Of a stretch of 64,000 nt of DNA, positions 472 through 17,376 are shown in pieces. The notes beneath the pieces were generated by a model. That model saw only the letters and a list, made by a program, of their open reading frames with translations. It ran no database searches and was not told the DNA's origin. The first letter of the stretch is position 1. Every line of letters begins with the position of its first letter. The position numbers and the translations under genes were made by a program. The DNA comes from Candidatus Omnitrophica bacterium UBA6253 (GTDB lineage: Bacteria; Omnitrophota; Gorgyraeia; Gygaellales; Profunditerraquicolaceae): positions 234,540 to 298,539 of the forward strand of contig DJVP01000008.1 of assembly GCA_002441245.1 (NCBI GenBank), written 5' to 3'.

Positions 472-1629
472 ATGATAAAAGAACTTTATTACACCCTGAA
501 GACTTTAAACAGCCGGCCAAGCGGCAGGGATTCTTCAATCCTGCGCCTTATCTGTCAAAGCCTGCCGATGTATTTTTTAAGGAATGGCTATAGTTTGCCT
601 CCTTTGAATTTATATCTCTCGGTTAATTCAAGCTGTAACTTAAAATGCAAGATGTGCGATATCGGGCAGGATGATATCAACGGCAGTTTTTATAGGAATA
701 TCGCAAAAGAAGAGAAGGCAGATTTATCTTTTGAGCTTATTAAAAAGATAATTGACGAAGTTTCCGTTTTTAAGCCGACAGTCCATGTGTGTTGTGTAGA
801 GCCGCTGCTTTATAAAGATATCGGCAGGGTGTGCAGGTATATTTCTGATAAAGGGATGAATGTTGATCTGCTCACTAACGGTCTGTTGTTAGAAAATAAG
901 ACAGAGGAAATAGTTTACGGAAGGGTGCGTAATCTATGGGTTTCCCTTGATGGCCCTCCCGATATTCATGATTCTATCCGCGGGGTTAAAGGCGCGTTTG
1001 AATTGATAAGAAAAGGGCTAGTAAAAATTAACGATCTTAAGAAATCAACGGGTTTAAGATTGCCAGTCTTAAACTGTTATTTTGTTACCTCCAACTATAA
1101 TTATTTTTGCCTTGAAGATTTTATTAAGTCAATATACGGTTTTGGTTTTAAAAGGATTCTTATCAGCCATATGAATTTTATTACCAAAGAATTAAGCGAA
1201 GAGCATAACGCAAAATTCGGGGATAAATACATATCTTATCCTGCTAATATCAGCAAGGTTGATCCTCTGGCAGTGGATACTGACGTTTTATATGAACAGG
1301 TTAAGAAAATAAAAAGGAGTTATATCCCCTTATGCAAGGGGGACATAATCTTTTCACCTTCTCTTGGCAGAAAGGGCTTAAGGGATTATTATCATAATCA
1401 CCGGATTATTGTGACCCGCACAACGTGTTTTATCCCTTGGGGGAGCGCCCAGATTAACGCTGATGGCGAAATGATTATATTCAGCAGATGCCTGCCGTTG
1501 AACTGTGGTAATATAAAAGATAAATCTTTTTTTGAGTTGTGGAATGGTGCTAAGATGAGGGAGTTCAGGAAAGATCTGCAGCGGTACCATTATTTTCCTG
1601 CCTGTTCCCGCTGTATTGGAATTTTATAA
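472..1629 (+). CDS. radical SAM enzyme with C-terminal SPASM/twitch-type auxiliary cluster domain
   Basis: CNLKCKMC matches the CX3CX2C radical SAM cluster motif. The Cys-rich C-terminus (TTCFIPWG...CLPLNCGN...CSRC) is typical of a SPASM domain. Confidence 0.8.
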   Translation: MIKELYYTLKTLNSRPSGRDSSILRLICQSLPMYFLRNGYSLPPLNLYLSVNSSCNLKCKMCDIGQDDINGSFYRNIAKEEKADLSFELIKKIIDEVSVFKPTVHVCCVEPLLYKDIGRVCRYISDKGMNVDLLTNGLLLENKTEEIVYGRVRNLWVSLDGPPDIHDSIRGVKGAFELIRKGLVKINDLKKSTGLRLPVLNCYFVTSNYNYFCLEDFIKSIYGFGFKRILISHMNFITKELSEEHNAKFGDKYISYPANISKVDPLAVDTDVLYEQVKKIKRSYIPLCKGDIIFSPSLGRKGLRDYYHNHRIIVTRTTCFIPWGSAQINADGEMIIFSRCLPLNCGNIKDKSFFELWNGAKMREFRKDLQRYHYFPACSRCIGIL

Positions 1630-1676
1630 AACAGGCAATTGGTTTATATAAAAAACATTTATTTAGGGGTAGCAGC

Positions 1677-3122
1677 ATGGGCCAAGGAATAGACATTTTA
1701 TTAATTATCCCTCATCAGCCCGGGACAGCGGATATATTGTCTGGGGCATCCGGGATTACGCCACCATTAGGCGCAGGGTATATTGCGAGCTATTTAGAGA
1801 AAAATAACTTTTCGGTTAAAATACTTGATAATAGCATAGAGAGGCTGAATGAAACAGAATTCCGGGCCTATATTAAGAAAGTTGACCCTCTTTATGCGGG
1901 CTTCAGCGTTTGTACATCTTCATATAATAATGCTGTCTATATGGCTAATATAGTTAAGGAGATAAACCGGGATATCAAAGTGATTATGGGCGGGGTGCAC
2001 GCATCAGCATTGCCAGGTGAGGTTCTCAAAAATGAGGCAGTAGATATAGTGGTTAAGGGGGAAGGAGAAGAAACAACCCTAAATTTATTACGGGCATTAA
2101 ATAAAAATGAAGATTTGAGTAAAATAAATGGTTTAGTGTTCAGGGGGGCTGACAAGTTAATTGAAACTCCGGAAAGGGAATTAATTGTTAATATAGATAA
2201 CCTGCCTTTTCCTGCTTACCATCTTTTAAATATGAATAAATATAGCCTGCCTGCCCAGAGGAGGCTTACTGATAAACCATGCGGCGCGGTAATTACCAGC
2301 AGGGGGTGTGTTTATAAATGTTTCTTTTGCAGCCATAACAGCATATTCAAGGGCAAGATAAGGTTCCGTTCAGTGCAAAATGTAATTGCCGAAATAAAAC
2401 ATTTGGTAGCAGATTATAAGATTGGGGAATTGTTGATATGGGATGACTCGTTTTTATTGGATAGGGGGCGTGCTTTAGAGTTTTGCCGGCTGATCAAGGA
2501 AGAAAAAATTGATATAATCTGGAGTTGCAGCAGCCGGGTTAACCAGATTTCCGACGATTTAGCTAAAGAGCTTTATACGGCTGGATGCAGACTGATACTT
2601 TTTGGCGCAGAGTCAGGTTCTCAGTTGATCCTTGATTCAATTAATAAAAATACCACTTTGTTAAATATAAGCGATGCAATTTCTGCCTGTAGAAAAAACA
2701 GAATACTTTCCTTTTGCAGCTTTATCTTGGGTACGCCGCAGGAAAACGAGGAGACAATAGAAGAAACCTTGAGGTTTGTTAAGAAGATTAACCCTGATTT
2801 TGCTATTTTTTGTATTTTTTCCCCTTTGCCCGGATCTGTTTTCTTTGATAGATTTATTTCTACAGGGCAGCTTGATATAAGTAAATTGAATTGGGATAAT
2901 TACATAAATTTATTATCAAATGCCCCGCCTGTTATTTCTTTGTGTCAAATTAGCGAAAAACGTTTGGTTTTGTTACAAAAAAAATGTTTCCGTAGTTTTT
3001 ATTTCCGGCCTAAATATATATTACAGAGATTAAAAAATATCCGTTCCTGGGGTAATTTTTATCAGTCCTGGAGAGGCCTGTTGGCATTAGCCAGATTGCA
3101 ATTAAATAAATTCAGATTCTAG
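1677..3122 (+). CDS. class B (B12-binding domain) radical SAM enzyme
   Basis: N-terminal Rossmann-like B12-binding region (IKVIMGGVHASALPGEVL). ITSRGCVYKCFFCSH is a CX3CX2C motif. The ~480 aa length is typical of B12-rSAM methyltransferase-like enzymes. Confidence 0.8.
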   Translation: MGQGIDILLIIPHQPGTADILSGASGITPPLGAGYIASYLEKNNFSVKILDNSIERLNETEFRAYIKKVDPLYAGFSVCTSSYNNAVYMANIVKEINRDIKVIMGGVHASALPGEVLKNEAVDIVVKGEGEETTLNLLRALNKNEDLSKINGLVFRGADKLIETPERELIVNIDNLPFPAYHLLNMNKYSLPAQRRLTDKPCGAVITSRGCVYKCFFCSHNSIFKGKIRFRSVQNVIAEIKHLVADYKIGELLIWDDSFLLDRGRALEFCRLIKEEKIDIIWSCSSRVNQISDDLAKELYTAGCRLILFGAESGSQLILDSINKNTTLLNISDAISACRKNRILSFCSFILGTPQENEETIEETLRFVKKINPDFAIFCIFSPLPGSVFFDRFISTGQLDISKLNWDNYINLLSNAPPVISLCQISEKRLVLLQKKCFRSFYFRPKYILQRLKNIRSWGNFYQSWRGLLALARLQLNKFRF

Positions 3123-3135
3123 GTTGTGAAACTAA

Positions 3136-4107
3136 ATGAAAAACAGCATTAAGAACTATGTTTCAATTACCATAGATATCGATACGCTTGGCGAAGATTT
3201 TTCTACCGGGAACTTGTCTAAAAATGACTCGGAGAAGATACGCCGCCTTGCTTATAATAAGAGCTTGCCAAGAATTTTAGATATACTTCAAGGGCTTGGA
3301 ATAAAAGCCACCTTTTTTATTATTGGAAAAGATGGGCTAATCCATAGCAATAAGAGGGTAATCCGTGATATTGCCAGCAGGGGGCATGAAATTGCTAACC
3401 ATAGCCTGGCCCATCGAAGGGATTTAGTGAAATTAAATAAAAATGAGATTATTGAGGATATTTCTCTTTCCGGGAAAATCCTTTCTGATATTACAGGGGA
3501 TAAATTGTATGGTTTCCGTATGCCCGGGTGCACTATTAACAATACAATCTTAAACGCACTGGAAGGAATGGGATATATTTACGATTCTTCCCTTAATTCA
3601 TCTATTGCGTATAATTTAGCGAAATTACTATATAAAGGATTATTTGCTAAGGGCAATATTCCAGCTCCAAGCCAGGGCATAAGTTCCCTAAGGGCTCCAG
3701 GCGAGCCATATTTCCCGGATAAAAAGAATATATTTACCAGTTCGAATAATAATAGCGGGATACTTGAGATACCCATCACATTAGTCCCATGGCTATCAAT
3801 TCCATTTATGAATTATTTGCTGCTTACCGGCGGGTATAGAATCACTGAATTATTTTATCGCCTTATAAGGAGAAAGAGAAAATTCCTGAATTTTGTTATG
3901 CATGATAGTGAGCTAGCCTGTTTTGATGATTACCAGGGGCAGCACTTGTCTTGCCGGCTTTGCGGATGGCATCTCAATAAAGATATCCGTCTCCGGGAGG
4001 GGTTTGTTAATAAAATACTTAAGATGATTAGCTTAGATTATCAGTTTATCACTCTTAAGGAGTATGCTATGATATCAAAAGGAATAAACTCTGATCCTGC
4101 ACGCTAA
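3136..4107 (+). CDS. polysaccharide deacetylase (NodB homology domain) family protein
   Basis: TFFIIGKDG and HEIANHSLAHR (H-S-x-x-H) are NodB-like motifs. Confidence 0.65.
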   Translation: MKNSIKNYVSITIDIDTLGEDFSTGNLSKNDSEKIRRLAYNKSLPRILDILQGLGIKATFFIIGKDGLIHSNKRVIRDIASRGHEIANHSLAHRRDLVKLNKNEIIEDISLSGKILSDITGDKLYGFRMPGCTINNTILNALEGMGYIYDSSLNSSIAYNLAKLLYKGLFAKGNIPAPSQGISSLRAPGEPYFPDKKNIFTSSNNNSGILEIPITLVPWLSIPFMNYLLLTGGYRITELFYRLIRRKRKFLNFVMHDSELACFDDYQGQHLSCRLCGWHLNKDIRLREGFVNKILKMISLDYQFITLKEYAMISKGINSDPAR

Positions 4108-4146
4108 AATATATTAATTAGCGGTTGGATTATCGGGGGAGGAAGC

Positions 4147-5445
4147 GTGGTCAATAGATTAATTTTTATATTGAAGAAAATAGGCATTTTATTTATTGGC
4201 TTAATTTTCGTAATTCTTTTGCTGGAGATTTGCTTAAGGTCTGCAGGCTATCTTTATTCTATGAAAAGAAGCATGTCTGCCTTGGACCGTGGAGATATTT
4301 TTGGCTCGAATAATATAGAATGGTCTGTTAAAGAAAATAGCCTAAATTCCAATGGCACAAAAACTATATTATGCTTAGGGGATTCTTTTACTTTTGGCGG
4401 TAATGTTAAAGAAAAAGATTGCTATCCATATCAGCTTATGAAATTAATACGGCTAAAGAACAAAGGTGCGGGCGTAAGGATAATAAACAAGGGCCATTGT
4501 GAATATAATTCAAACCAGGTTCTCAGGGATTTTTTAAGCAATATAAAGAAATTCACACCTAAAATAATCATCCTTTTGGTGGGGTCAAGCGACAAATTTA
4601 ACCTTATAGGCAATGAAGAACTGGATAGTAGGCTTATATATGAGCCGGATTACGAAGAGGGCAGGGGTGGCGGTGGTTTAACAGGCAAATCTGTATATTT
4701 TAATTTAAGAGATATGGTTTTAGAGTCGAGGGTATATAAAATAGCTAAAATTATAAAATTAAATTTAATCTATAGGAAATTATCTTGGGAGATCAAGGAG
4801 AATGGGGAGGCGTTATCTTCTATACATAGTCCAAAAATAAGGAATGAAAACTTTAAGAGCGTTTGTGCTGACCTGGAGAGATATTATTATCAGAAAAACT
4901 ACGAAAAAGTTATGGAATTGGCTCTGGAGTCTATCAGGAACTGGCCTCTTGAACCGGAATATTATATCCGCGGGATTGGTAGTTTTTATGCTTTGGCATG
5001 GGCATATGATTTCCAGGGGAAATATGATAGCCAGTATGTGATTGATAGTTTTGATAATATGACTTTAAGCCGGCCGGAGCTTAAACAAAACAAAGTATTT
5101 CTAAAATACTACAAAAGGTTCAAAGACCTGCAGGAATCCGATGAATACTTAATTGAAAAACTAAAAAGTAACCTGGAAAAAATGATTAAGATATGCAAGG
5201 CAATGGATATTGATATAATAATCCAGAATTACCCGTCTTCTTACGTTATAGTCAATAATATACTGCGGGAAGCTGCGGCAAGGAATAACCTGTTATTTAT
5301 CGACAATTATGCAATTTTTAATGAATTGATGATAAAGAATGGGAGAAATGTATATTTGATAGGGGATGATCATTGTACACCCGCCGGCTATAGAGTAATG
5401 GCTGAGAACATATATAATGCCGCAAAAGAACTGATTAATCGTTAG
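4147..5445 (+). CDS. membrane-anchored SGNH/GDSL-family hydrolase
   Basis: N-terminal TM helix. ILCLGDSFTFGG is a GDSL block I motif. A DH pair near the C-terminus (GDDHCTP) is the block V catalytic Asp-His candidate. Confidence 0.55.
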   Translation: MVNRLIFILKKIGILFIGLIFVILLLEICLRSAGYLYSMKRSMSALDRGDIFGSNNIEWSVKENSLNSNGTKTILCLGDSFTFGGNVKEKDCYPYQLMKLIRLKNKGAGVRIINKGHCEYNSNQVLRDFLSNIKKFTPKIIILLVGSSDKFNLIGNEELDSRLIYEPDYEEGRGGGGLTGKSVYFNLRDMVLESRVYKIAKIIKLNLIYRKLSWEIKENGEALSSIHSPKIRNENFKSVCADLERYYYQKNYEKVMELALESIRNWPLEPEYYIRGIGSFYALAWAYDFQGKYDSQYVIDSFDNMTLSRPELKQNKVFLKYYKRFKDLQESDEYLIEKLKSNLEKMIKICKAMDIDIIIQNYPSSYVIVNNILREAAARNNLLFIDNYAIFNELMIKNGRNVYLIGDDHCTPAGYRVMAENIYNAAKELINR

Positions 5446-5487: not shown

Positions 5488-5670
5488 ATGATTATGGGTA
5501 AGACGCGTTTTAAATCAAATAAAGATTTATTAATGTTATTATTTGTTTTGATCAAGAACAACAAAAAATGGTTTTTATTGCCCATTCTTTTCGTTCTCGC
5601 TGTGCTTAGCTTATTTGTTAATCTCACCGGTAATCAATCTGTATTACCAGCAATTTATGCTTTGTTTTGA
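5488..5670 (+). CDS. DUF5989-like small membrane protein
   Basis: 60 aa, basic N-terminus, and a single TM ending ...KKWFLLPILFVLAVLSLFVNLTGNQSVLPAIYALF. This resembles the conserved DUF5989 pattern (KKxWLLPIIxxLLLLG...APFIYTLF). It overlaps the next gene start by 4 nt. Confidence 0.5.
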   Translation: MIMGKTRFKSNKDLLMLLFVLIKNNKKWFLLPILFVLAVLSLFVNLTGNQSVLPAIYALF

Positions 5671-7133
5671 TGAAAAAGAAAATCTTATTAATTAGGACTC
5701 ATAAGCATCTGAATGCTGGCGGACCAATACCGCCCATTGGCCTGCTATACATAGCTACGGCTATCCTAAAGAATTTTGCTGATACATATGAAGTAAAAAT
5801 TATTAATTTGGGTCTGAATAATTTTACCGTAGATGATATTATATGCCAGATTAAATCTTATGATCCTTATATTCTAGGAATGAGTGTTTTAACTTGCGAA
5901 GCTGACATTATGCAGGAAATAGCTCAGCAAGCAAAGGCAATTAAAAAAGAAATTATTGTTTTAGTGGGCGGTCCCCATGCTAGCTTAGTGAAGGAAGGCA
6001 TATTGCATGACAATAATATTGATTATGGAGTGATTGGCGAAGGCGAAAATACGATAATTGAGTTGTTGCGCGGGTTAGAAAATAAGAAGGATATATCAAG
6101 CATAAAAGGTATTGTCTGCCGCAATAATAATAGTATTTCTTGTACGCAAAGGGCAGAATATGTCGCTGATTTGGATAGCCTGGATATTCTACCCGATGCC
6201 TGGGGGTTAATTGATTTAAAAGAATATGCCAGATGCGCTAATTGGAACGGGGCAGGAAAGGAAAAGCTTTACGCTCCCGTATTAACTTCTAGGGGCTGTC
6301 CGTTTAATTGCGCATTTTGTAATAGTAGAAATATTTTTGGCAGGGGTTTTAGGACTCGTTCGCCGGAAAACGTATTTTCAGAGATGTTGTTTCTGTATAG
6401 AAAATACGGGATTAAAGAAATTCATATCATTGATGATGTATTTAATTTTAACAGCGAGAGGGTAAACCGGATTTGTTCATTGATTATAAATTCCGGGATA
6501 GATTTCAGCCTGGCATTTCCTAATGGCTTAAGGATTGATATGATGACGGAGGAAATGATCTCTAGTTTAAAGAGGGCGGGAACTTACAAGATAAATTATG
6601 GGATTGAAACTGCTGAAGCAGGCATGCAGCAAATTATAAATAAGGAGCTCAATCTTACCTACGCAAATGACATAATTAATAAAACCATGGACGCGGGAAT
6701 AATTACCGCCGGTTACTTCATTTTGGGTTTTCCCAATGAAAGTTGCGAAAACATGATGAAAACAGTCAAATTTGCTTTGGGGTCAAATTTAGATAATGCC
6801 TATTTCTTTAAATACACCAATTTTCTGGATAGCGGACTTGACGATAAAAAAGGAAAGGATGAAGAAAAAATAAGCCATGGCCATAATGATCTGCATTTCT
6901 ATTCTTTAGCTCGGCCAGGCGTCAATATGCCGGCGGCAAAATTAAACAACATTATATTAAAGGCCCAGCAGGATTTTTATTTGAATCCCAGGAGGATCTT
7001 GCGTGGGATTTTAAGGGCTAAGCACAAGCTGGTGTATCTAAGAAACCTTTTGAATGCTTTTTCCCGGATCTTACAATCATATTTGTTTAGAGAGTTAATA
7101 TTTAATAATAAATTAGATACTGGACAATCTTAA
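5667..7133 (+). CDS. class B (B12-binding domain) radical SAM enzyme
   Basis: VLVGGPHASL in the B12-binding domain. LTSRGCPFNCAFCNS is a CX3CX2C motif. Confidence 0.8.
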   Translation: MMKKKILLIRTHKHLNAGGPIPPIGLLYIATAILKNFADTYEVKIINLGLNNFTVDDIICQIKSYDPYILGMSVLTCEADIMQEIAQQAKAIKKEIIVLVGGPHASLVKEGILHDNNIDYGVIGEGENTIIELLRGLENKKDISSIKGIVCRNNNSISCTQRAEYVADLDSLDILPDAWGLIDLKEYARCANWNGAGKEKLYAPVLTSRGCPFNCAFCNSRNIFGRGFRTRSPENVFSEMLFLYRKYGIKEIHIIDDVFNFNSERVNRICSLIINSGIDFSLAFPNGLRIDMMTEEMISSLKRAGTYKINYGIETAEAGMQQIINKELNLTYANDIINKTMDAGIITAGYFILGFPNESCENMMKTVKFALGSNLDNAYFFKYTNFLDSGLDDKKGKDEEKISHGHNDLHFYSLARPGVNMPAAKLNNIILKAQQDFYLNPRRILRGILRAKHKLVYLRNLLNAFSRILQSYLFRELIFNNKLDTGQS

Positions 7134-10632: not shown

Positions 10633-12045
10633 ATGATTCAGGAAGCGATTGTTTTTTTAAACCCTCCTTATAAATATGCCATTCAAAGAAAATTACGATG
10701 TTCTCCAAGGCGTTGTGGTAACATATTCCCGCCCTTAGAATTATTATATCTAGCTTCGCTAATAAACGAAAAGGGCAGCCTAGAGATTATTTTTACAGAT
10801 GCAATAGCCGATAGGCTAACGCTTAGGGAAATAATAGACAGATTAAAAAAGTATCGCGTAAGGATTATAGTTTTTATGCCGGGTTTTGAATCCTTGGAAG
10901 AAGATTTAAAAACCATATCTAAAATCAAGGAAAGCCTAAATAAAGATTGCCGGGTAATAAGCTTTGGTTATTTGCCGACTTTATATTTCAGGGATATTTT
11001 TAAGGCGTTTCCTCTAGTAGACTATATAATTATGGGGGAACCGGAAATAACATTCAAAGAGCTGTATGATGCTATAATTCTGGATAATAAGGACATAAGA
11101 AAAATAAAAGGTTTGGCCTTAAACCAGGGCACAGTACCAATTTTAAATGAAGCTAGGCTTGAGAAGCTTGATTTAAACTGCCTGCCCTTTCCCAATAGAA
11201 AATTATTGAGGAATAATTCTTATTCTGATCCATTTTTGAAGGGGCCCATGACAAGCGTAATTACTTCCCGGGGATGCCCGCATAGATGTGTTTTTTGTGT
11301 CGATTCCTATGGGCATGTTTTTCGCCGGAGGGCAGCGGATAATGTTGTTCGTGAGTTGAAACATATTGTTTATGATCTTGGTATCAACAATGTTAGATTT
11401 ATGGATGATAATTTTACCGCGGATAGAAATAATCTCATTAGCATATGCAAGGGGATAATTGAAAATAAAATAGATATTGCCTGGACCTGTTTAAGCCGGG
11501 TTGATACTTTTGACAAAGAAATGTTGGCTTATATGGCACGGGCGGGGTGCAAGGCTATATTCCTTGGTATAGAAAGCGGGTCCCAGAAGATCCTCGATTA
11601 TTATAAAAAAGGCTATTCCGTTGATATAATAAAGAGACAATGCCGGTTAATAAAAGAGGCAGGCATTGATATTGTTTCCTGGTTTGTTTTAGGTGCGCCA
11701 ATAGAAACACTCGATGATATCAGAAAGAGCCTAAAATTATCCCTGGAGATTGATTCCGATTTTATCTGTCTGAATGAACTACGGCCAATGCCTGCTACTG
11801 ATATCTTTAATAAGCTAAGAGACCATATCCGTGTTTCTTTATTTCCATTCAATATCAGTTATGCGCCATTTTCTTTAAGTGCTAAAGAAGTTGCGCGTTT
11901 ACGGAGGATATTTTATATAAGATTTTATTTTTCGCCAAAGATAATTTGGAAAATTTTATTGCGTTTTATCAGGAATCCGGAGAATATAATGTTTTTTTTA
12001 CGGGAGTTTATTTCAGCAACCAGGTTGAGTTATATTGAAAAATAA
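10633..12045 (+). CDS. class B (B12-binding domain) radical SAM enzyme
   Basis: ITSRGCPHRCVFCVDS is a CX3CX2C motif. The N-terminal region has the B12-binding-like fold pattern. Confidence 0.8.
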   Translation: MIQEAIVFLNPPYKYAIQRKLRCSPRRCGNIFPPLELLYLASLINEKGSLEIIFTDAIADRLTLREIIDRLKKYRVRIIVFMPGFESLEEDLKTISKIKESLNKDCRVISFGYLPTLYFRDIFKAFPLVDYIIMGEPEITFKELYDAIILDNKDIRKIKGLALNQGTVPILNEARLEKLDLNCLPFPNRKLLRNNSYSDPFLKGPMTSVITSRGCPHRCVFCVDSYGHVFRRRAADNVVRELKHIVYDLGINNVRFMDDNFTADRNNLISICKGIIENKIDIAWTCLSRVDTFDKEMLAYMARAGCKAIFLGIESGSQKILDYYKKGYSVDIIKRQCRLIKEAGIDIVSWFVLGAPIETLDDIRKSLKLSLEIDSDFICLNELRPMPATDIFNKLRDHIRVSLFPFNISYAPFSLSAKEVARLRRIFYIRFYFSPKIIWKILLRFIRNPENIMFFLREFISATRLSYIEK

Positions 12046-12076: not shown

Positions 12077-13150
12077 ATGAATCCATGGAAGATAAGTTTT
12101 AACCGGCCTTTGAAATGGGGTGATTTATGGGGTTTACGCTGGATCCTTTTTACTATATTTATCCGGCTATGCAGGCCAAAAATATCTGCAAACATTTTCC
12201 GTTTCCTCCTTGGATGTATTTTAAAAAAAGACAAGGTTTCGCATATGCCGTTATATATGGTATTTGAACCAAGCTCCCGGTGTAATCTGAGCTGTAAGAT
12301 GTGCTGGAGGTCGCTGTATAAGACAAATAGAGTAGAGTCCGATATGTCCTATGACAATTTTACAAAGGTTATTGATAAAATCGGAGACTATCTAATCTTC
12401 GTAGTGCTATGGAATTATGGTGAACCACTGCTAAATCCTAATTTGGACAGGATGATAGAGTATTGTTCAAAAAAAGGGATAATCACTGTTTTAAGCACCA
12501 ATGGTAATCTGCTTAGTAAGGAAAGAAGCTTAGGGCTATTCAGCGCCGGCTTAAAATACCTGATTGTTTGCGTAGATGCAGTTACCGATGATATTTACCA
12601 AAAGTATAGAGGCGCTGTGAAATTATCAGAGATAAAGAATAATATAGTACAGGCGTGTAAATTAATAAAAGAAAACAAACTTAAATTTCCTGTTATAGAG
12701 TTACAATTTATTGTGATGAGAGAAAACGAACATCAGGTTGATGATTTTTTACTTATGGCTTATTCCTGGGGAGTGGATAGGGCCTCTTTAAAAAAATTCA
12801 GTGCGCTTTTAGGTTCCGGACCGCTGGATGAATTTATGCCTCTAAATAATAATTATCTCCTGGATTGCTATAAAAAACCTGGATCTATCCGCAAAGGTTT
12901 TTGTTTTGCCCCTTGGCAGTCCCTGGTTATCAACTCAGATGGCTGGGTCCTGCCCTGTTGTTCGGATTATTTCTGTACCGAGAAAATGGGCAATATACTT
13001 GAAGAAGATATAAGCCAAATATGGAACAATAGCCGGTGTATTAAGTTCCGCAGGCAGATAAAGCATGATATAAATTCAATTGATATCTGCCGTGATTGCC
13101 CGCATGATTCCGGTCAATCCGGCTCTTTTGTATTGACAAAACAATTCTAA
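12077..13150 (+). CDS. radical SAM enzyme with C-terminal SPASM domain
   Basis: SSRCNLSCKMC is a CX3CX2C motif. The C-terminal CCSDYFC...CRDCPHD is a Cys-rich SPASM-like region. The start codon may lie downstream of the listed one. Confidence 0.75.
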   Translation: MNPWKISFNRPLKWGDLWGLRWILFTIFIRLCRPKISANIFRFLLGCILKKDKVSHMPLYMVFEPSSRCNLSCKMCWRSLYKTNRVESDMSYDNFTKVIDKIGDYLIFVVLWNYGEPLLNPNLDRMIEYCSKKGIITVLSTNGNLLSKERSLGLFSAGLKYLIVCVDAVTDDIYQKYRGAVKLSEIKNNIVQACKLIKENKLKFPVIELQFIVMRENEHQVDDFLLMAYSWGVDRASLKKFSALLGSGPLDEFMPLNNNYLLDCYKKPGSIRKGFCFAPWQSLVINSDGWVLPCCSDYFCTEKMGNILEEDISQIWNNSRCIKFRRQIKHDINSIDICRDCPHDSGQSGSFVLTKQF

Positions 13151-13157
13151 TTAATAT

Positions 13158-14144
13158 ATGACAATATCTGCAATAATACCGGCTTATCACCCACGCAATA
13201 TTAGAGAATGCGTATTGGCAATAGCCTGTTCTAGATATAAACCGCATGAGATCATCTTGGTTGACGATAATTCTAAAATCGATTATTTCAAAGATGTAGA
13301 GCAATATTGCAAAATAATAAAATTAGATAAACATTCAGGGGCAGCCAGAGCCAGGAATGCCGGCGCGCTAGCTTCAAAAGGCGAATTACTTTGTTTTATT
13401 GATTCCGATGTATTGGTTTTTGAAGATACACTGGAATTAATAGCTTCTATATTTAGAAAAGATCCTGAAATATCCGCGGTTCAGACAGCCTGCATAGATA
13501 GGTGTGGTTTTGTAAATTTTGCTAGCCAATATCAGAATCTGTATTTTCATTATAATACCATAACGATTAGGGAAAAATATCTTGCTACAATAATAGGTCA
13601 TTGTTTTGCGGTAAGGAGAAAAGATTTTGATTTGGCAGGAGGATTTGATGAAGAGATTATGGGGGCTAGCGTTGAGGACGGTAATTTTGGGTTGAAGTTA
13701 TATAAGCTTCATAAGAAGATCTATTTGGATCAGGGGATTAAGATATGGCACAAGAGAAACCTTAGCCCGTTGACGGTTATAAATAAGATGTTCACAAAAT
13801 CATCCGATAAAATCTATACTTTATTAAAGTCCGGTGATCTCTTTAAAGTTAACCCGGATAAGACAGAACATTCAAAAATGAAGATAGCTGCTATACTGGC
13901 AGCTTTATTATCAGCTTTAAGTTTAATAAGCTCGATATTCTTTCCCCGGATATTATTTGTTGCCTTGTTTATCCTATTGGTATATTTATTGTGCAGCGGA
14001 CAGTTTGTTTTCTTCTGTTTACGGAAAAATGGTTCAATTTTTGCAGTTAAAGCGGTTTTATTCCATTACCTGAACTGTTTTTTTTCTTCCTTAGGGATAA
14101 TTTCGGGGCTGTTCAGGTTTCTTAAATATAGGTTTATAGAATGA
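13158..14144 (+). CDS. GT2 family glycosyltransferase with C-terminal TM segments
   Basis: ISAIIPAYHP, LVDDNS and FIDSDV are GT-A fold motifs. The C-terminus is hydrophobic. Confidence 0.7.
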   Translation: MTISAIIPAYHPRNIRECVLAIACSRYKPHEIILVDDNSKIDYFKDVEQYCKIIKLDKHSGAARARNAGALASKGELLCFIDSDVLVFEDTLELIASIFRKDPEISAVQTACIDRCGFVNFASQYQNLYFHYNTITIREKYLATIIGHCFAVRRKDFDLAGGFDEEIMGASVEDGNFGLKLYKLHKKIYLDQGIKIWHKRNLSPLTVINKMFTKSSDKIYTLLKSGDLFKVNPDKTEHSKMKIAAILAALLSALSLISSIFFPRILFVALFILLVYLLCSGQFVFFCLRKNGSIFAVKAVLFHYLNCFFSSLGIISGLFRFLKYRFIE

Positions 14145-15229
14145 TGCAATATATCAAACAATGTTTCAATCTGGTAGATAAAAGAGGCATGTTCCCTGAA
14201 TATCTGACACTATTTGTTACTAATAAGTGTAATTCATCCTGCCGGCATTGTTTTTATTGGCAAAGTTTAAATTCTAGCGAAAAAGACTTAAGCTGTGATG
14301 AAATTAATAAGTTATCCAGCAATATGGATAATTTTCTGTTTTTATTGATAACTGGCGGAGAGCCGTTCCTTAGAGACGATATCCCTGAGATTGTAAAAAT
14401 CTTTTACAGGAAGAATTGTCTGAAGAAATTAACGATAGCAACTAACGGTTACTTTGTAGAAAATATAGAGAAAGGGGTTGAGGGGATCTTAAGGGAATGC
14501 CCGGGATTAGAGTTAAATGTTAATATTTCTCTTGATGGTATAGGCGAAGACCATGATAGGATAAGGGGAAAAGATGGTATGTTTGCTAAGGCGATTGCTG
14601 CCACAAAAGTTATAAAGCAACTTAAAATGCATTATCCGGATTTATTGCTTTCTGTTATTTATACTTTCTCAGCCCTTAATGAAAATAAGGCTGCAAGCGA
14701 TTATCAGTATATAAAGAAAACTATCAAACCGGACTATTTTAATCTTTCTTTAGTCAGGGGCAATACCAGGGAGCAAGGCCTAAGGGTAGGGAATATTAGG
14801 GAATATAATAATCTTTGGAGTGAAATAAAGAAAGATATTCTATCCAAATGCTTCAGGCAATCTGTTTTATCCAGATTATTATCTGCTGCTAAAGTAACAG
14901 CCAAGGACCTGGCGTTAAAAACATTGATGCAGGATAGGTATATAACTCCATGCTATGCTGGTAAAACCAATATAGTTATTTACCCTAACGGTGATGTTTA
15001 TCCTTGTGAGCTCTTAGAGGAGGGGTTTGGGAATTTACGAAAAGAAGGCTACGATCTGAGAAAAATATTGTTTTCGGCAAACTCTAGAAAAATAAAGGAA
15101 AGAATTCATAAGAAAAGATGTTATTGTTACCATGGTTGTAATGCCCTGCCCAATGTTCTATACAATGTCAGGTATTTACCAGAGATAGCAATAAACTATT
15201 GTAAGCAGTATTTTATGAGTAAAAATTAA
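14141..15229 (+). CDS. radical SAM enzyme with C-terminal SPASM domain
   Basis: VTNKCNSSCRHC is a CX3CX2C motif. The C-terminal CYAGK...YPCE...CYCYHGC is SPASM-like. It overlaps the upstream gene by 4 nt. Confidence 0.75.
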   Translation: MMQYIKQCFNLVDKRGMFPEYLTLFVTNKCNSSCRHCFYWQSLNSSEKDLSCDEINKLSSNMDNFLFLLITGGEPFLRDDIPEIVKIFYRKNCLKKLTIATNGYFVENIEKGVEGILRECPGLELNVNISLDGIGEDHDRIRGKDGMFAKAIAATKVIKQLKMHYPDLLLSVIYTFSALNENKAASDYQYIKKTIKPDYFNLSLVRGNTREQGLRVGNIREYNNLWSEIKKDILSKCFRQSVLSRLLSAAKVTAKDLALKTLMQDRYITPCYAGKTNIVIYPNGDVYPCELLEEGFGNLRKEGYDLRKILFSANSRKIKERIHKKRCYCYHGCNALPNVLYNVRYLPEIAINYCKQYFMSKN

Positions 15230-15231
15230 TT

Positions 15232-17376
15232 ATGGCCATAACATCTACCCAGAAAAATAAGCTGGTTATTTTATCGCTGCTTATATTATTTTTTATCTTT
15301 ATACGGATAATGATAATATCGTGTTCAGAAATCCTGATCCGGCAAGGAGAAGAGCCTTATGTAGGAACAATTGCTAAGGGGATTCTCGAGGGATGGATTT
15401 CTTCGGTTTGGGATTATCAGCGTATTCCGTATGTCGGCGGTCATGTTATGGCGGCTTATCTTGCCTTGCCATTTTTTATATTATTCGGTTTTAAGCAAAT
15501 TGCCCTGGTGACCGCCGCTATTATAATTGGTTTAATAGGACTGGTCTTTCTTTATATTCTTTGCGAAAAATATTTTAATAGAAGGGTGGCGGTTATCAGC
15601 TGCGTGCTTTATATTTTGCCTCCTCCGTTATTGATGGTGCGTTCATTGATATTTAACGGCTCACATAGCGAATCGGTAGTTTTTACCATTTTAGTTTTCT
15701 TCGTATTCTTAAATACGCTTTATAATAAAAGATCGGTTTTAAATTATTCCATATTGGGGTTATTAAGTGGAATTAGTTTTTCTTACCTGTATACAAATGC
15801 CATTTCGATTCTAACGTGTTTGTTTATCTGGATTACGATAAAAAGGAAGGTTTTTTTAAAAAAAGAATTTATTTTTTATATTTCTGGGTTAATGCTGGGG
15901 TGTACTCCGTGGTTGAGCTACAATTTCAGGAATAACTTTTCCGGTTTAGAATTTGTTGCCACCAACTTTTCCGGGGTTTCCAATCATGCTTTGAAAGAAT
16001 TTCCCTCGGTTCTATTTGAATCCATTAAAAATATGCGCAAGATGTTTATCTTTGATCATTTCTCGATTGTTTCGGGAAATATTTTTAACATAATATATTA
16101 TTCGATATTTTTAATTTCGCTATTCTTTATCCTTTTCTTAATTATAAAAAAGCTAATTCTTTCTTATCAATTGAAGTCTAAAATTAACTTTCAGGATAAA
16201 TGTCCAGCTTATTCTAAATACCTGTTTATTGGCACTTTCATTATTATGTACATATTAGTCTATTCTATCAGCAATATTAAATTCAAGAATAGCGGAAATC
16301 CTATTATGGATTATAAATATGGCTTGATTATTTTTCCCTATATCTTTATAAGTATTGCCTTGTTTATCGATGGATTATTTTCGGCCAGGAATCCTTTATG
16401 CAGGTTCGCCGGCCTTGTGATGCTGGCTACGGCCACTATTATTGGGTTTGTAGGAAACTCAGGTTTATTTTATTCCCTGGATTTTAAGAATAAATACTTA
16501 GGCACTACTGCTATTTACTATGATTTAGTCGGCAAGGTGGCAGCTGACAAATATGATATAGATTGGGCTAAGGCCGAAAAATTTATAAGGAGGGTAAAAT
16601 CTGGGTGTGCTGTTCGTAATGCTGTTGAAGGATATGGATTCGCCTTAGGAGATAGATTTTCCAGAGAAATGGTTTTTAATGAAAAACTTGGATTACTCAA
16701 AAATATTAGTATGCCAGCTGATATTTTAGGTAGTTTTTGGAGAGGTATTGGCAAGGCGAGAGTTGATAATTATTATCAGGAAAGAATGAGAAATGTGCAT
16801 AAAGATAATTTCAAGATTGTTGATTTTATCGCAGAATGTAATCAATTACATATCCCTGCTCCGCAGCGCGATTATTTCTACGCCGGGGTTATCGAACAGT
16901 TATTGGCAGAAAGGTGGAATGAACAATTTAGCCGCCTCGATATAAAGATAGATGATTTAGCTAATATTCTGCCAGAAGAATACCGTTATTTAACATATCT
17001 TTTCTATGGTTTTTCTGTTGGAGATAAGATTGCCAGGAAGGACCATTTTTACGATTCTTTAAGACTGCCTCCCGATTTAAATTCCAGCTATCTCAGGTAT
17101 TATTATATGGGTGTTGGTACTACCGTAACCTATTTTTTCTCCGGCAATATAAGAAAGAGCATCAATTTTTTAAATAGCTTTGAAAAAACTATACGTGATT
17201 ATTTATTGACCGGTGTGGGTTTGTATTTTTATATATTTAACGATTGCAGCAAAGATAGCCGCGGAGCAGGATACCCGCATGTTTTTCTAAAAGAATATAA
17301 TGTTTATTATGAGAAAGCCGCTAGTTTATTTAAAGATACCCCACTTAACAGCTTTGATTTTCAGATAGGTAATTAA
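15232..17376 (+). CDS. large polytopic membrane protein, GT-C-fold (ArnT/PMT-like) glycosyltransferase candidate with a soluble C-terminal domain
   Basis: About 430 aa carry 10+ hydrophobic helices, and the first loop holds an acidic EEPY motif. The soluble ~280 aa C-terminal domain is unrecognised. Confidence 0.4.
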   Translation: MAITSTQKNKLVILSLLILFFIFIRIMIISCSEILIRQGEEPYVGTIAKGILEGWISSVWDYQRIPYVGGHVMAAYLALPFFILFGFKQIALVTAAIIIGLIGLVFLYILCEKYFNRRVAVISCVLYILPPPLLMVRSLIFNGSHSESVVFTILVFFVFLNTLYNKRSVLNYSILGLLSGISFSYLYTNAISILTCLFIWITIKRKVFLKKEFIFYISGLMLGCTPWLSYNFRNNFSGLEFVATNFSGVSNHALKEFPSVLFESIKNMRKMFIFDHFSIVSGNIFNIIYYSIFLISLFFILFLIIKKLILSYQLKSKINFQDKCPAYSKYLFIGTFIIMYILVYSISNIKFKNSGNPIMDYKYGLIIFPYIFISIALFIDGLFSARNPLCRFAGLVMLATATIIGFVGNSGLFYSLDFKNKYLGTTAIYYDLVGKVAADKYDIDWAKAEKFIRRVKSGCAVRNAVEGYGFALGDRFSREMVFNEKLGLLKNISMPADILGSFWRGIGKARVDNYYQERMRNVHKDNFKIVDFIAECNQLHIPAPQRDYFYAGVIEQLLAERWNEQFSRLDIKIDDLANILPEEYRYLTYLFYGFSVGDKIARKDHFYDSLRLPPDLNSSYLRYYYMGVGTTVTYFFSGNIRKSINFLNSFEKTIRDYLLTGVGLYFYIFNDCSKDSRGAGYPHVFLKEYNVYYEKAASLFKDTPLNSFDFQIGN

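What the first reader, a model, noticed from the sequence alone, without database searches (positions are those of the whole stretch)
472..17376. Seven radical SAM enzymes (four class B B12-binding, three SPASM-type) in one glycan-modification-like operon with GT2, GT-C, deacetylase, SGNH hydrolases and a DUF5989 mini-protein
Seventeen kilobases of co-directional, tightly packed genes encode four B12-binding radical SAM proteins (1677, 5667, 7138, 10633) and three SPASM-domain radical SAM proteins (472, 12077, 14141). Interleaved are two GT2 glycosyltransferases, one being the ~230-aa polyprenyl-phosphate-sugar synthase type. There is also a 714-aa polytopic GT-C-like membrane protein, a NodB deacetylase, two membrane-anchored SGNH hydrolases and a DUF5989-like 60-aa membrane protein. 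I know of no characterised polysaccharide or lipid pathway that needs this many radical SAM enzymes. The GT2 (polyprenol-P-sugar synthase) plus GT-C pairing is the hallmark of periplasmic-face glycosylation of lipid A, O-antigen or proteins. The adjacent locus encodes seven pilins with Ser/Thr-rich tails, so pilin or envelope glycan tailoring (C-methylation, epimerisation, dehydration by radical chemistry) is a testable hypothesis. A radical-SAM-tailored lipid is another possibility.
Basis: partly seen in the sequence, partly recalled or inferred. Interest (0 to 1): 0.75.

Follow-up and report, generated by a model that had tools for sequence, protein, structure and literature searches.

The report
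Radical-SAM-rich envelope sugar-tailoring gene island
An uncultured Omnitrophota bacterium carries a long operon that combines the standard machinery for attaching lipid-carried sugars to the cell surface with an exceptional number of oxygen-independent radical enzymes, which probably build unusual surface sugars that nobody has yet characterised.

Summary
All seven radical SAM (rSAM) genes, two GT2s, one GT-C, a NodB deacetylase, two SGNH hydrolases and a DUF5989 mini-protein are present (Pfam, CxxxCxxC in all seven). The array is cut by the window's left edge. ORF 7-468 is the tail of an eighth rSAM, and the source contig (Omnitrophota MAG GCA_028718365.1) carries at least 13 rSAMs and 2 GT-Cs co-directionally; a third GT-C is seen only in a sister lineage.

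The array is built from conserved sub-modules:
- GT2a-B4-S2-GT-C recurs in other Omnitrophota. B4-GT2-GT-C recurs in a Planctomycetia glycan locus.
- SGNH-DUF5989-B2 recurs next to Wzy_C, YfhO and heptosyltransferase genes.

Closest solved relatives point to sugar chemistry. GT2a matches ArnC, DPMS and GtrB. The GT-C fold matches ArnT. B4 matches AprD4. S2 matches BtrN with all four twitch cysteines conserved. No protein reaches any NCBIfam equivalog cutoff.

Best reading: an Arn-like, three-component polyprenyl-phosphate-sugar/GT-C system whose sugars are tailored by rSAM enzymes. The acceptor is unknown. A pilin link gets no support: no Tad or Flp genes occur in 97 related loci. Lipid head-group and peptide (RiPP) readings remain as rivals. 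I rate it a new variant of a known kind.

The parts
1..468 (+). 3' end of an eighth rSAM gene (a 484-aa B12-binding rSAM whose start lies about 986 nt upstream of the window)
   Evidence: 100% match to L007 8543-9997. The full protein has B12-binding + Radical_SAM domains. The window maps to L007 position 9530 with 0 mismatches over the overlap.
472..1629 (+). S1: rSAM with a SPASM/twitch C-terminal domain (385 aa)
   Evidence: Pfam Radical_SAM 46 bits and SPASM 43 bits. CNLKCKMC at residue 55. Best solved relative is cytosylglucuronate decarboxylase BlsE, E 6e-7.
1677..3122 (+). B1: B12-binding-domain rSAM (481 aa)
   Evidence: Pfam B12-binding 77 bits and Radical_SAM 79.5 bits. Best NCBIfam hits are HpnJ 204 bits and BchE 202 bits, both far below cutoff. 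Best solved relative is AprD4, E 1.8e-18.
3136..4107 (+). NodB/CE4-type deacetylase (323 aa, no TM helix)
   Evidence: Pfam Polysacc_deac_1 78 bits. Only generic CE4 matches among solved structures. ArnD equivalog 23.9 bits against a 382-bit cutoff.
4147..5445 (+). SGNH1: membrane-anchored SGNH/GDSL hydrolase (432 aa)
   Evidence: Pfam Lipase_GDSL_2. TM-like helix at residues 12-30. Relatives of 36-43% local identity sit next to DUF5989 in L092 and L093, and at 25% in Elusimicrobiota L091.
5488..5670 (+). DUF5989 mini-protein (60 aa, one TM helix)
   Evidence: Pfam DUF5989 47 bits. 37 homologues found; the few with a source name are Omnitrophota or Elusimicrobiota. An SGNH gene is next to it or one gene away in all 3 contexts examined. 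dN/dS 0.15.
5667..7133 (+). B2: B12-binding-domain rSAM (488 aa), partner of the SGNH1-DUF5989 pair
   Evidence: Pfam B12-binding 72.7 bits and Radical_SAM 63 bits. Relatives of 46-48% identity lie immediately after DUF5989 in L092 and L093.
7138..8574 (+). B3: B12-binding-domain rSAM (478 aa)
   Evidence: Pfam B12-binding 62.5 bits and Radical_SAM 74.6 bits. HpnJ 189 bits, below cutoff. A 33% relative lies next to the B4-like gene in Planctomycetia L014.
8599..9768 (+). SGNH2: second SGNH/GDSL hydrolase (389 aa) with an N-terminal hydrophobic helix
   Evidence: Pfam Lipase_GDSL_2 50 bits. 39% relative in L093.
9861..10565 (+). GT2a: polyprenyl-phosphate-sugar synthase-type GT2, catalytic domain only (234 aa)
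   Evidence: Solved relatives: ArnC 7e-33, DPMS 9.5e-21, GtrB 3e-18. NCBIfam ArnC 129 bits against a 529-bit cutoff. 54-62% orthologues in L003, L005 and L006.
10633..12045 (+). B4: AprD4/HpnJ-like rSAM with a degenerate B12-like N-domain (470 aa); conserved core partner of GT2a and the GT-C
   Evidence: Pfam Radical_SAM 88.6 bits, B12-binding 32.5 bits (cutoff 32.1). AprD4 2.3e-23. 52-63% orthologues in Omnitrophota, 40% in Planctomycetia and 38% in Woesearchaeota, next to a GT2a-like gene in each.
12077..13150 (+). S2: BtrN-like twitch-domain rSAM (357 aa); conserved core
   Evidence: BtrN 5.5e-16, with C276, C294, C338 and C341 aligned to BtrN's auxiliary-cluster cysteines. 51-64% orthologues in L003, L005 and L006.
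13158..14144 (+). GT2b: conventional GT2 glycosyltransferase (328 aa) with one C-terminal hydrophobic helix
   Evidence: Pfam GT2 76.8 bits. Chondroitin/heparosan-synthase-like GT2 domain. TM-like helix at 260-278.
14141..15229 (+). S3: rSAM with a SPASM-like domain (362 aa)
   Evidence: Pfam Radical_SAM 54.6 bits and SPASM 30.4 bits. The best solved hit covers only the rSAM core: GDGT/MA synthase, 1.8e-7. NCBIfam Tes 46 bits against a 450-bit cutoff.
15232..17376 (+). GT-C glycosyltransferase (714 aa): polytopic N-domain plus an all-helical repeat C-domain (about residues 430-714)
   Evidence: Pfam PMT_2. AF2 model pLDDT 77, pTM 0.79. Best fold match ArnT 5f15, E 2.3e-5, then OST/AglB/Pmt4. 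E40-E41 invariant in the first loop. 548 representative clusters at E<=1e-30.
17485..18402 (+). Membrane-anchored TPR protein (305 aa), likely accessory
   Evidence: Pfam TPR_1/2/8. TM-like helix at 35-53. 25-28% TPR relatives sit in the L003 and L005 clusters.

Best explanation
The region is the 3' half of a roughly 30 kb Omnitrophota operon for a cell-envelope glycan. It works like an Arn/Gtr/PpgS-type 'three-component' system with radical SAM tailoring enzymes built in.

Inferred pathway:
1. GT2a loads a hexose or N-acetylhexosamine from a nucleotide sugar onto polyprenyl phosphate at the cytoplasmic face.
2. The NodB enzyme exposes the amine.
3. The rSAM enzymes remodel the sugar without oxygen, while it is nucleotide-linked or lipid-linked. 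S2 (BtrN-like) would oxidise an alcohol to a ketone. B4 (AprD4/HpnJ-like) would dehydrate a diol or rearrange the ring. B1-B3 would C-methylate or carry out other cobalamin-assisted radical steps.
4. GT2b and S3 add or alter a further sugar.
5. After flipping, the ArnT-fold GT-C transfers the tailored sugar to a periplasmic acceptor (LPS/lipid A, another glycan or a surface protein). Its helical-repeat C-domain and the adjacent TPR protein would recognise the acceptor.
6. The membrane-anchored SGNH hydrolases with DUF5989 add or remove ester-type decorations.

Shown: domain identities, synteny, purifying selection and closest structural relatives. Inferred: substrates, the order of steps, the chemistry of each rSAM and the acceptor.
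For: - Domain content and operon packing.
- GT2a's only strong solved relatives are polyprenyl-phosphate glycosyltransferases: ArnC, DPMS and GtrB.
- The GT-C model's best fold match is ArnT.
- GT2a-B4-S2-GT-C are syntenic orthologues (36-64% identity) in three or four other Omnitrophota lineages. There an SDR epimerase/dehydratase and a DegT aminotransferase sit between GT2a and B4, as in the Arn operon.
- The B3-like/B4-like/GT2a-like/PMT_2 run also occurs in a Planctomycetia locus with DegT, GFO/IDH/MocA, GT1, several GT2s and an ABC exporter.
- Every GT-C-seeded locus with usable flank has rSAMs beside the GT-C (L098-L103), and most with enough flank also carry a short GT2. This holds down to 21-29% GT-C identity. 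Those loci also carry DegT, WbqC, Asn synthase, NodB+DUF3473 and a GLF-like gene.
- SGNH1-DUF5989-B2 recurs next to Wzy_C, YfhO, GT1, GT2, GT9 heptosyltransferase and PMT_2 genes.
- The closest solved rSAM relatives act on sugars or aminocyclitols: AprD4, BtrN (twitch cysteines conserved) and BlsE.
- dN/dS is 0.08-0.15 for all 13 genes compared.
- GC is about 36% in the cluster against about 42% in the rest of the window, as is common for surface-glycan islands.
Against: - No protein reaches any equivalog cutoff, so every substrate assignment is by analogy.
- rSAM similarities to AprD4, BtrN and BlsE are weak (E 1e-7 to 1e-23) and lie largely in the shared rSAM core. HpnJ and BchE profiles score higher than AprD4 for B1, B3 and B4.
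- No flippase (GtrA or ArnE/F type) and no nucleotide-sugar enzyme was recognised in the window.
- GT2a lacks the TM helices of ArnC and GtrB.
- The acceptor is unidentified.
- A distantly similar NodB/GT2/SPASM/B12-rSAM set in Desulfuromonadales sits among fatty-acid synthesis genes, so such enzyme sets can serve lipid pathways.
Confidence: 0.55

Rival explanations
1. The cluster tailors a membrane lipid or glycolipid head group, not a polysaccharide or protein glycan. A GT2 would put GlcNAc on a lipid, the deacetylase would free the amine, and B12-type or SPASM rSAMs would contract, methylate or cross-link the head group or the chains. The models are HpnI-HpnK-HpnJ in hopanoids, calditol synthase in archaea, and the uncharacterised 'ladderane-like' lipid clusters.
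For: - HpnJ is the top NCBIfam hit for B1, B3 and B4 at 180-204 bits.
- The trio of GT2, deacetylase and rSAM is the published route to BHT cyclitol ether, and calditol synthase is an rSAM acting on a lipid-linked hexose (PMC13459092).
- Desulfuromonadales/Geobacter loci combine NodB, a PpgS-like GT2, a SPASM rSAM and several B12-rSAMs with an LpxL-like acyltransferase, FabD-like and FabG genes and a true TIGR04072 'lipid biosynthesis B12 rSAM' (396 bits, cutoff 360).
- S3's best solved hit is the tetraether synthase.
Against: - HpnJ scores are about one third of the family cutoff (577 bits). TIGR04072 scores are 91-123 bits against 360. Tes scores 46 against 450.
- No fatty-acid, isoprenoid, squalene/hopene or acyltransferase genes occur in the window or in the upstream 10 kb.
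- Identity to the Desulfuromonadales genes is only 25-32%.
- Two to five GT-C transferases per locus, together with Wzy_C, heptosyltransferase, DegT and WbqC neighbours, fit glycan assembly better.
Confidence: 0.2
2. One reading: the cluster glycosylates the seven Flp pilins encoded about 14 kb downstream, with rSAM-tailored sugars attached to their Ser/Thr-rich tails.
For: - A complete Tad locus lies in the same window: CpaB, secretin, CpaE/F fusion, TadB/C and seven Flp-type pilins at 31334-33106. Three of the pilins have long Ser/Thr-rich tails.
- The GT-C belongs to the PMT_2 family, which includes protein O-mannosyltransferases. It carries a helical-repeat domain and a TPR neighbour, both suited to protein recognition.
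Against: - No homologue of any Tad or Flp protein occurs within about 10 kb in 97 related loci (1.36 Mb), including all close orthologous clusters.
- In the window the two loci are separated by opposite-strand regulators, a tRNA gene and a PpiC gene.
- ArnT, a lipid A transferase, is the best fold match.
Confidence: 0.1
3. The rSAM enzymes modify a peptide or protein (RiPP-like, or maturation of a giant surface protein). B12-rSAMs would C-methylate and SPASM enzymes would cross-link, as in proteusins, sactipeptides and ranthipeptides. The GT-C would add O-linked sugars after export.
For: - Many NCBIfam hits for the SPASM proteins are peptide maturases, and ApyD and RiPP C-methyltransferase profiles match the B12-rSAMs at 1e-26 to 1e-44.
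- A giant ORF (at least 7,833 aa) with a Peptidase_C39-like domain lies in the same window.
Against: - All those hits fall far below the family cutoffs.
- Intergenic gaps are 108 nt or less, which leaves no room for a precursor gene.
- No PqqD/RRE domain, leader peptidase or export ABC transporter was detected in the cluster.
- The conserved partners of the rSAMs across lineages are GT2, GT-C, DegT and SDR genes, not peptides.
Confidence: 0.07

Closest known systems
Arn pathway (ArnB/C/A/D/T) and other three-component polyprenyl-phosphate-sugar systems (GtrA/B/V; PpgS with Rv3779; CsbB with YfhO)
   Same: - A short GT2 whose best solved relatives are ArnC, DPMS and GtrB.
- A CE4-family deacetylase in the role of ArnD.
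- A GT-C whose best fold match is ArnT.
- Sister loci add an SDR and a DegT aminotransferase, matching ArnA and ArnB.
   Different: - Seven rSAMs in the window, and at least 13 in the full operon, are interleaved with these genes. None is known in any characterised system of this type.
- GT2a lacks TM helices.
- No flippase was recognised.
- Two to five GT-C paralogues occur per locus.
- The GT-C carries a helical-repeat C-domain of about 280 aa.
- All equivalog cutoffs are missed by a wide margin.
Hopanoid side-chain tailoring HpnI (GT2), HpnK (deacetylase) and HpnJ (B12-like rSAM); archaeal calditol synthase Cds
   Same: - The same trio: glycosyltransferase, deacetylase and an rSAM proposed to rearrange a lipid-linked aminosugar.
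- HpnJ is the best-scoring curated profile for B1, B3 and B4.
   Different: - Scores are about one third of the HpnJ cutoff.
- The deacetylase here is a NodB/CE4 enzyme. From memory, HpnK belongs to the YdjC family.
- No hopanoid genes are nearby.
- GT-C transferases point to onward transfer of the sugar rather than a terminal lipid head group.
Aminoglycoside and nucleoside-sugar rSAMs: AprD4 (diol dehydratase), BtrN (twitch dehydrogenase), BlsE (decarboxylase)
   Same: - These are the closest solved structures to B1/B4, S2 and S1 respectively.
- S2 keeps all four BtrN auxiliary-cluster cysteines.
- BtrN-like oxidation followed by DegT transamination would be the same logic as 2-deoxystreptamine synthesis.
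   Different: - Similarity is low (E 1e-7 to 1e-23).
- The NCBIfam AprD4 profile gives 77-100 bits against a cutoff of 500.
- The context is envelope glycosylation, not an antibiotic cluster.
TIGR04072-type 'lipid biosynthesis B12-binding/radical SAM' (ladderane-like) clusters of Desulfuromonadales and anammox bacteria
   Same: Several B12-rSAMs sit with a NodB deacetylase, a short PpgS-like GT2 and a SPASM rSAM in a single operon.
   Different: - Those clusters contain FabG, FabD-like and LpxL-like genes and a true TIGR04072 member. The window has none of these.
- Identities are only 25-32%.
- Those clusters lack GT-C genes.
SxtK with SxtL (a small protein and a GDSL-type enzyme next to the saxitoxin carbamoyltransferase)
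   Same: A protein of about 55-60 aa lies beside a GDSL/SGNH enzyme of about 430 aa. In the sxt clusters, sxtK is 165 bp and sxtL is 1281 bp (PMC2679770). From memory, not tested here: DUF5989 corresponds to SxtK-like proteins and SxtL is a GDSL-type enzyme.
   Different: - No carbamoyltransferase or SxtJ gene is present here.
- The conserved third partner is a B12-rSAM (B2).

Membership tests
Radical SAM superfamily | PF04055 domain with a CxxxCxxC motif for the SAM-binding [4Fe-4S] cluster | tested here: met
   All seven proteins score 46-89 bits against PF04055, above the 29.5-bit cutoff. Each has one CxxxCxxC motif.
Class B (cobalamin-dependent) rSAM | N-terminal B12-binding (PF02310) domain | tested here: met
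   B1 scores 77, B2 72.7 and B3 62.5 bits against a 32.1-bit cutoff. B4 scores only 32.5 bits, which is marginal.
Class B (cobalamin-dependent) rSAM | Actual cobalamin binding and methyl transfer (or other B12 chemistry) | not testable with these tools
   The top solved relative of B1 and B4 is AprD4. From memory, AprD4 has a B12-like domain but no cobalamin. Methylases TokK, TsrM and CysS score lower.
SPASM/twitch rSAM | C-terminal PF13186 domain | tested here: met
   S1 43 bits, S2 57.6 bits and S3 30.4 bits, all above the 21.5-bit cutoff.
SPASM/twitch rSAM | Full seven-cysteine SPASM motif (CX2CX5CX3C) for two auxiliary clusters | tested here: not met
   No CX2CX5CX3C motif occurs in S1-S3 (cysteine positions). 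S2 matches the four-cysteine twitch pattern of BtrN. S3 is ambiguous (C271, C289, C327, C329, C333, C354).
ArnC (undecaprenyl-phosphate Ara4FN transferase) | NCBIfam NF007986 equivalog score of at least 529 bits; C-terminal TM helices | tested here: not met
   129 bits. GT2a is 234 aa with no TM-like segment. ArnC is nevertheless its best solved relative, E 7e-33.
ArnD (deformylase) | NCBIfam NF011923 score of at least 382 bits | tested here: not met
   23.9 bits. Only generic CE4 matches among solved structures.
ArnT / GT-C fold | Polytopic GT-C fold with an acidic motif in the first periplasmic loop | tested here: met
   The AF2 model's best Foldseek hits are ArnT 5f15 and 5ezm at probability 1.0, followed by OST, AglB and Pmt4. 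E40-E41 is invariant in the family alignment. Fold membership is met. Identity as ArnT is not: there was no sequence hit to any PDB chain and no NCBIfam hit.
HpnJ | TIGR03471 score of at least 577.6 bits; hopanoid gene context | tested here: not met
   B1 204, B3 189, B4 180 and B2 115 bits. No hpn or shc genes in the window or the upstream 10 kb.
AprD4 family diol-dehydratase | NF033070 score of at least 500 bits | tested here: not met
   B4 100, B3 87, B1 77 and B2 51 bits.
TIGR04072 lipid-biosynthesis B12 rSAM (ladderane-type cluster) | TIGR04072 score of at least 360 bits; adjacent fatty-acid synthesis genes | tested here: not met
   91-123 bits for B1-B4. No Fab or ACP genes were found. 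A true member is present in L090 at 396 bits.
Tetraether synthase Tes | NF045702 score of at least 450 bits | tested here: not met
   S3 scores 46 bits.
RiPP biosynthetic cluster | Precursor peptide gene, RRE/PqqD domain, leader peptidase or exporter | tested here: not met
   Gaps are 108 nt or less. No such domains were found in 16 window proteins or 10 upstream proteins.
DUF5989 (PF19451) | Pfam gathering score of 27 bits | tested here: met
   47.4 bits. Homologues carry the same Pfam annotation.

The most novel reading that the evidence does not exclude
Omnitrophota, and some Planctomycetia, Woesearchaeota and related uncultured anaerobes, possess a previously unrecognised class of envelope-glycosylation modules. 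In these, radical SAM enzymes act directly on polyprenyl-phosphate-linked sugars and generate deoxy, keto/amino, C-methylated or even carbocyclic sugars without oxygen. Dedicated ArnT-fold GT-Cs then install these sugars on the surface. The modules would be shuffled and possibly phase-varied to diversify the surface of these ultra-small, host-associated cells.
Probability: 0.3. Interest if true: 0.8.

Novelty: new variant of a known kind. Interest (0 to 1): 0.62.

Why it matters
In characterised pathways, sugars are modified while attached to a nucleotide, mostly by NAD-, PLP- or oxygen-dependent enzymes. Radical SAM sugar chemistry is known mainly from antibiotic pathways and from two lipid head groups.

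This would be a conserved module that ties AprD4-, BtrN- and class-B-type rSAMs to a polyprenyl-phosphate-sugar synthase and a GT-C. If confirmed, it would:
- extend radical chemistry to bacterial cell-surface glycans;
- predict new sugar structures in a phylum with no pure cultures;
- supply many unassigned rSAMs with a plausible substrate class;
- offer an anaerobic enzyme toolbox for glyco-engineering.

It would also give a concrete handle on the surface biology of Omnitrophota, which are thought to attach to or prey on other cells.

Tried and rejected
- NCBIfam scan of all cluster proteins for an equivalog: none reached a cutoff, so no known pathway could be assigned.
- Sequence search of the GT-C against solved structures: no hit. 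A fold search was needed instead.
- Promoter and terminator scan of 1-19500: counts were within or near the shuffle expectation, so it says nothing about operon boundaries.
- Literature searches for 'DUF5989' and for 'radical SAM' + ArnC + ArnT found no papers. The Omnitrophota + radical SAM papers do not describe this cluster.
- The Tad/Flp co-localisation test was negative, so pilin glycosylation was demoted.
- Hopanoid, Tes/GDGT, ladderane, AprD4 and RiPP memberships were each rejected on curated score cutoffs and on missing context genes.
- The source genome was not in the genome-contig collection. Upstream extension therefore came from exact-protein look-ups (L007) and from a lineage about 92% identical in protein sequence (L010).
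- The equivalence of DUF5989 and SxtK could not be tested, because no SxtK sequence was available.
- The topology of the SGNH anchors could not be decided from charge distribution.

Full report
**Source and observation**

The window comes from a Candidatus Omnitrophota metagenome-assembled genome (MAG). The GT-C protein is 99% identical to an NCBI 'Candidatus Omnitrophica' protein. The window maps with no mismatch over an 11.6-kb overlap onto GCA_028718365.1, contig JAQUMA010000002.1, which is 225 kb long.

Fifteen + strand genes fill 472-17376, with gaps of -4 to 92 nt. A TPR gene follows after 108 nt. Each of the seven radical SAM (rSAM) proteins has a single CxxxCxxC motif.

A sister lineage (L104, L105; GCA_028714555.1) keeps the entire gene order. 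All 13 genes compared show dN/dS of 0.08-0.15, including the 60-aa DUF5989 gene. These are real genes under selection.

**The cluster is larger than reported**

ORF 7-468 is the C-terminus of a 484-aa B12-binding rSAM. Upstream, on the same strand of the same contig, lie:
- a B12-rSAM of 491 aa;
- a SAM methyltransferase;
- a PMT/PMT_2 GT-C of 596 aa;
- three further rSAMs of 462, 351 and 331 aa, the last with a SPASM domain;
- a B12-rSAM of 504 aa.

In a lineage about 92% identical in protein sequence, a further PMT_2 GT-C and a flavin amine oxidase precede these genes. Beyond a short opposite-strand block lie another B12-rSAM and three Peptidase_U32 genes.

The window's own contig therefore holds at least 13 rSAMs and 2 GT-Cs in one co-directional array. 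The third GT-C was seen only in the sister lineage.

**Refinement of the enzyme classes**

B1-B3 have solid B12-binding domains. B4 scores 32.5 bits against a 32.1-bit cutoff.

The best solved relative of both B1 and B4 is the aminoglycoside diol-dehydratase AprD4 (1.8e-18 and 2.3e-23). The cobalamin methylases TokK, TsrM and CysS score lower. Among curated profiles, HpnJ and BchE score best at 115-204 bits. That is about one fifth to two fifths of their cutoffs.

S2's best solved relative is BtrN. The residue-level alignment conserves BtrN's four twitch-cluster cysteines, which correspond to C276, C294, C338 and C341 in S2. S1 weakly matches the cytosylglucuronate decarboxylase BlsE. S3 matches only the generic rSAM core of other enzymes. 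None of the three has the CX2CX5CX3C SPASM motif.

'Four class B plus three SPASM' is therefore better stated as three probable class B enzymes, one AprD4/HpnJ-like enzyme with a degenerate B12-like domain, two twitch-like enzymes and one ambiguous SPASM-like enzyme.

**Glycosylation machinery**

GT2a's only strong solved relatives are polyprenyl-phosphate glycosyltransferases: ArnC 7e-33, DPMS 9.5e-21 and GtrB 3e-18. It comprises the catalytic domain alone, with no TM helix.

GT2b resembles the GT2 domains of chondroitin and heparosan synthases. The deacetylase is a generic CE4 enzyme.

The GT-C was modelled with pLDDT 77 and pTM 0.79. It has a polytopic N-domain and an all-helical repeat C-domain. 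ArnT is the best fold match, followed by oligosaccharyltransferases and Pmt4. An E40-E41 pair in the first loop is invariant.

A profile of this GT-C finds 548 representative clusters at E<=1e-30 among 1.84 billion proteins. This is a sizeable and undescribed subfamily. The 8 homologues seen at first reflect the limited sensitivity of the word index.

**Comparative genomics**

*Module B (9861-17376).* GT2a, B4, S2 and the GT-C have syntenic orthologues in other Omnitrophota (L003/L004, L005=L011, L006, L012):

| Gene | Identity to orthologues |
|---|---|
| GT2a | 54-62% |
| B4 | 52-63% |
| S2 | 51-64% |
| GT-C | 36-46% |

In those loci an SDR epimerase/dehydratase and a DegT aminotransferase are inserted between GT2a and B4. 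That reproduces the ArnC/ArnA/ArnB/ArnT gene set.

A Planctomycetia locus (L014) has a B3-like gene, a B4-like gene (40% identity), a GT2a-like gene and a PMT_2 gene in a row. They sit among DegT, GFO/IDH/MocA, GT1, several GT2s, an ABC exporter and an LtaS/sulfatase-type enzyme. A Woesearchaeota contig has a B4-like gene next to a GT2a-like gene.

I also seeded the search from the GT-C rather than from an rSAM. Every locus with usable flank (L098-L103, GT-C identity 21-29%) carries rSAMs beside the GT-C, and most with enough flank also carry a short GT2. One locus has four tandem GT-Cs. Others add U32, Asn synthase, WbqC, DegT, NodB+DUF3473, LPG_synthase_TM and GLF-like genes.

*Module A (4147-9768).* SGNH1, DUF5989 and B2 recur as a unit in two other Omnitrophota loci. 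DUF5989 is 75-78% identical, B2 46-48% and SGNH1 36-43% over a local alignment. SGNH2 recurs at 39% in one of them. The neighbours there are Wzy_C, YfhO, GT1, GT2, a GT9 heptosyltransferase and PMT_2 genes. An Elusimicrobiota locus keeps DUF5989 close to an SGNH gene.

*Signs of mosaic structure.* Synonymous divergence from the sister lineage jumps from 0.37-0.50 to 0.63-1.0 at SGNH2. The cluster's GC is about 36%, against about 42% for the rest of the window. Both fit a mosaic surface-glycan island.

**Interpretation**

The best-supported model is a three-component, Arn-like periplasmic glycosylation system with rSAM tailoring built in:
1. GT2a makes a polyprenyl-phosphate sugar.
2. NodB frees an amine.
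3. S2 (BtrN-like oxidation), B4 (AprD4/HpnJ-like dehydration or rearrangement) and B1-B3 (C-methylation or other radical steps) remodel the sugar.
4. GT2b and S3 elaborate it further.
5. The GT-C transfers it outside the cytoplasm, helped by its helical-repeat domain and the TPR protein.
6. The SGNH/DUF5989 pairs handle ester-type decorations.

Precedents exist for modifying sugars while they are lipid-linked. ArnD and the mycobacterial DprE1/E2 epimerase are established knowledge. HpnI/K/J and calditol synthase are described in PMC13459092.

Domain identities, synteny and purifying selection are shown. The chemistry of each rSAM, the carrier state of the substrate, the flippase and the acceptor are all inferred.

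**Rivals**

- *Lipid or glycolipid head-group tailoring.* This is the main rival. HpnJ is the best curated hit. Desulfuromonadales loci also combine NodB, a PpgS-like GT2, a SPASM rSAM and several B12-rSAMs with Fab genes and a true TIGR04072 member. The window has no lipid-synthesis genes, identities are 25-32%, and multiple GT-Cs plus O-antigen-type neighbours favour glycans.
- *Pilin glycosylation.* A Tad locus with seven Flp pilins does exist at 23618-38919. No related cluster has Tad or Flp genes nearby.
- *A peptide (RiPP) role.* The cluster lacks a precursor gene, an RRE domain, a peptidase and an exporter.

**Novelty**

No curated family, solved structure or paper that I could search describes rSAM enzymes embedded in a GT2/GT-C polyprenyl-phosphate-sugar system.

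The parts are known kinds and the combination is not. I rate it a new variant of a known kind, of moderately high interest. It defines a testable substrate class for many orphan rSAMs and predicts unusual anaerobically made surface sugars in an uncultured phylum.

Noticed in passing
window 40244-40335 (+) and 40500-64000 (+, runs off the window end): A c-di-GMP-I-GGC riboswitch (62.4 bits, above the gathering score) lies about 165 nt upstream of a giant ORF. The ORF is at least 7,833 codons long and is still open at the window end. A Peptidase_C39-like domain sits at residues 177-261, and no other Pfam hit occurs in the first 6,000 residues. This looks like a c-di-GMP-controlled giant Omnitrophota protein.
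   Followed up: partly
window 23618-38919 (+): A complete Tad/Flp pilus locus. It holds RcpC/CpaB, a secretin with a TonB_C domain, a fused CpaE-CpaF ATPase (719 aa), DUF192, two T2SSF proteins and seven tandem Flp-type pilin genes at 31334-33106. Three pilins (110, 104 and 96 aa) carry Ser/Thr-rich tails.
   Followed up: partly
window 18467-22111 (-): A divergent signalling unit (response regulator-GGDEF, GAF histidine kinase and a FIST protein) sits between the glycan cluster and the tRNA-Glu gene at 22166-22242. Together with the riboswitch, it suggests c-di-GMP control of surface structures in this region.
   Followed up: no
L007 9311-9318 (about 218 nt upstream of window position 1): The only difference in 1.6 kb between the MAG and two independent assemblies (Logan SRR13427970, JGI 3300001592) is a poly-A tract of 8 against 7 bases. 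It lies inside the 484-aa B12-rSAM gene. A8 gives the intact gene and A7 splits it into 276 + 214 aa. This could be slipped-strand phase variation or an assembly error.
   Followed up: partly
L010 5420-6456 (-); L092 9653-10682; L093 9854-10693: A 282-aa protein with a PP-loop 'SGGxDS' ATP-pyrophosphatase motif (44-58% identical between loci) recurs beside the SGNH-DUF5989-B2 modules. In two loci it is paired with a conserved 63-aa hydrophobic mini-protein. Neither has a Pfam hit on record.
   Followed up: partly
L003, L005, L006, L010, L102: Peptidase_U32 genes recur in the sister rSAM/GT-C loci. From memory, this family now includes O2-independent hydroxylases. That fits an anaerobic tailoring toolbox. 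None occurs inside the window.
   Followed up: no
L043, L047, L050, L053, L056, L065, L068, L078, L085, L090 (Geobacter/Desulfuromonadales MAGs): A conserved cluster: B12-rSAM, NodB (XrtA-type, 207 bits), a PpgS-like GT2, a SPASM rSAM, several further B12-rSAMs (one a true TIGR04072 member in L090), an LpxL-like acyltransferase, a FabD-like gene and FabG. This is an uncharacterised 'ladderane-like' lipid or glycolipid pathway that shares its enzyme logic with the window cluster.
   Followed up: partly
window 1-18000 versus 18001-64000; boundary near 8599: The cluster has about 36% GC, against about 42% for the rest of the window. Synonymous divergence from the sister lineage steps up from about 0.4 to 0.6-1.0 at SGNH2. 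Both suggest recombination or mosaic assembly of modules.
   Followed up: partly
L100 8329-16427: Four tandem paralogous GT-C genes (654-685 aa) of the same subfamily sit in one metagenomic locus, flanked by B2-, B3- and B1-like rSAMs, an SGNH gene and a GT2b-like gene.
   Followed up: no
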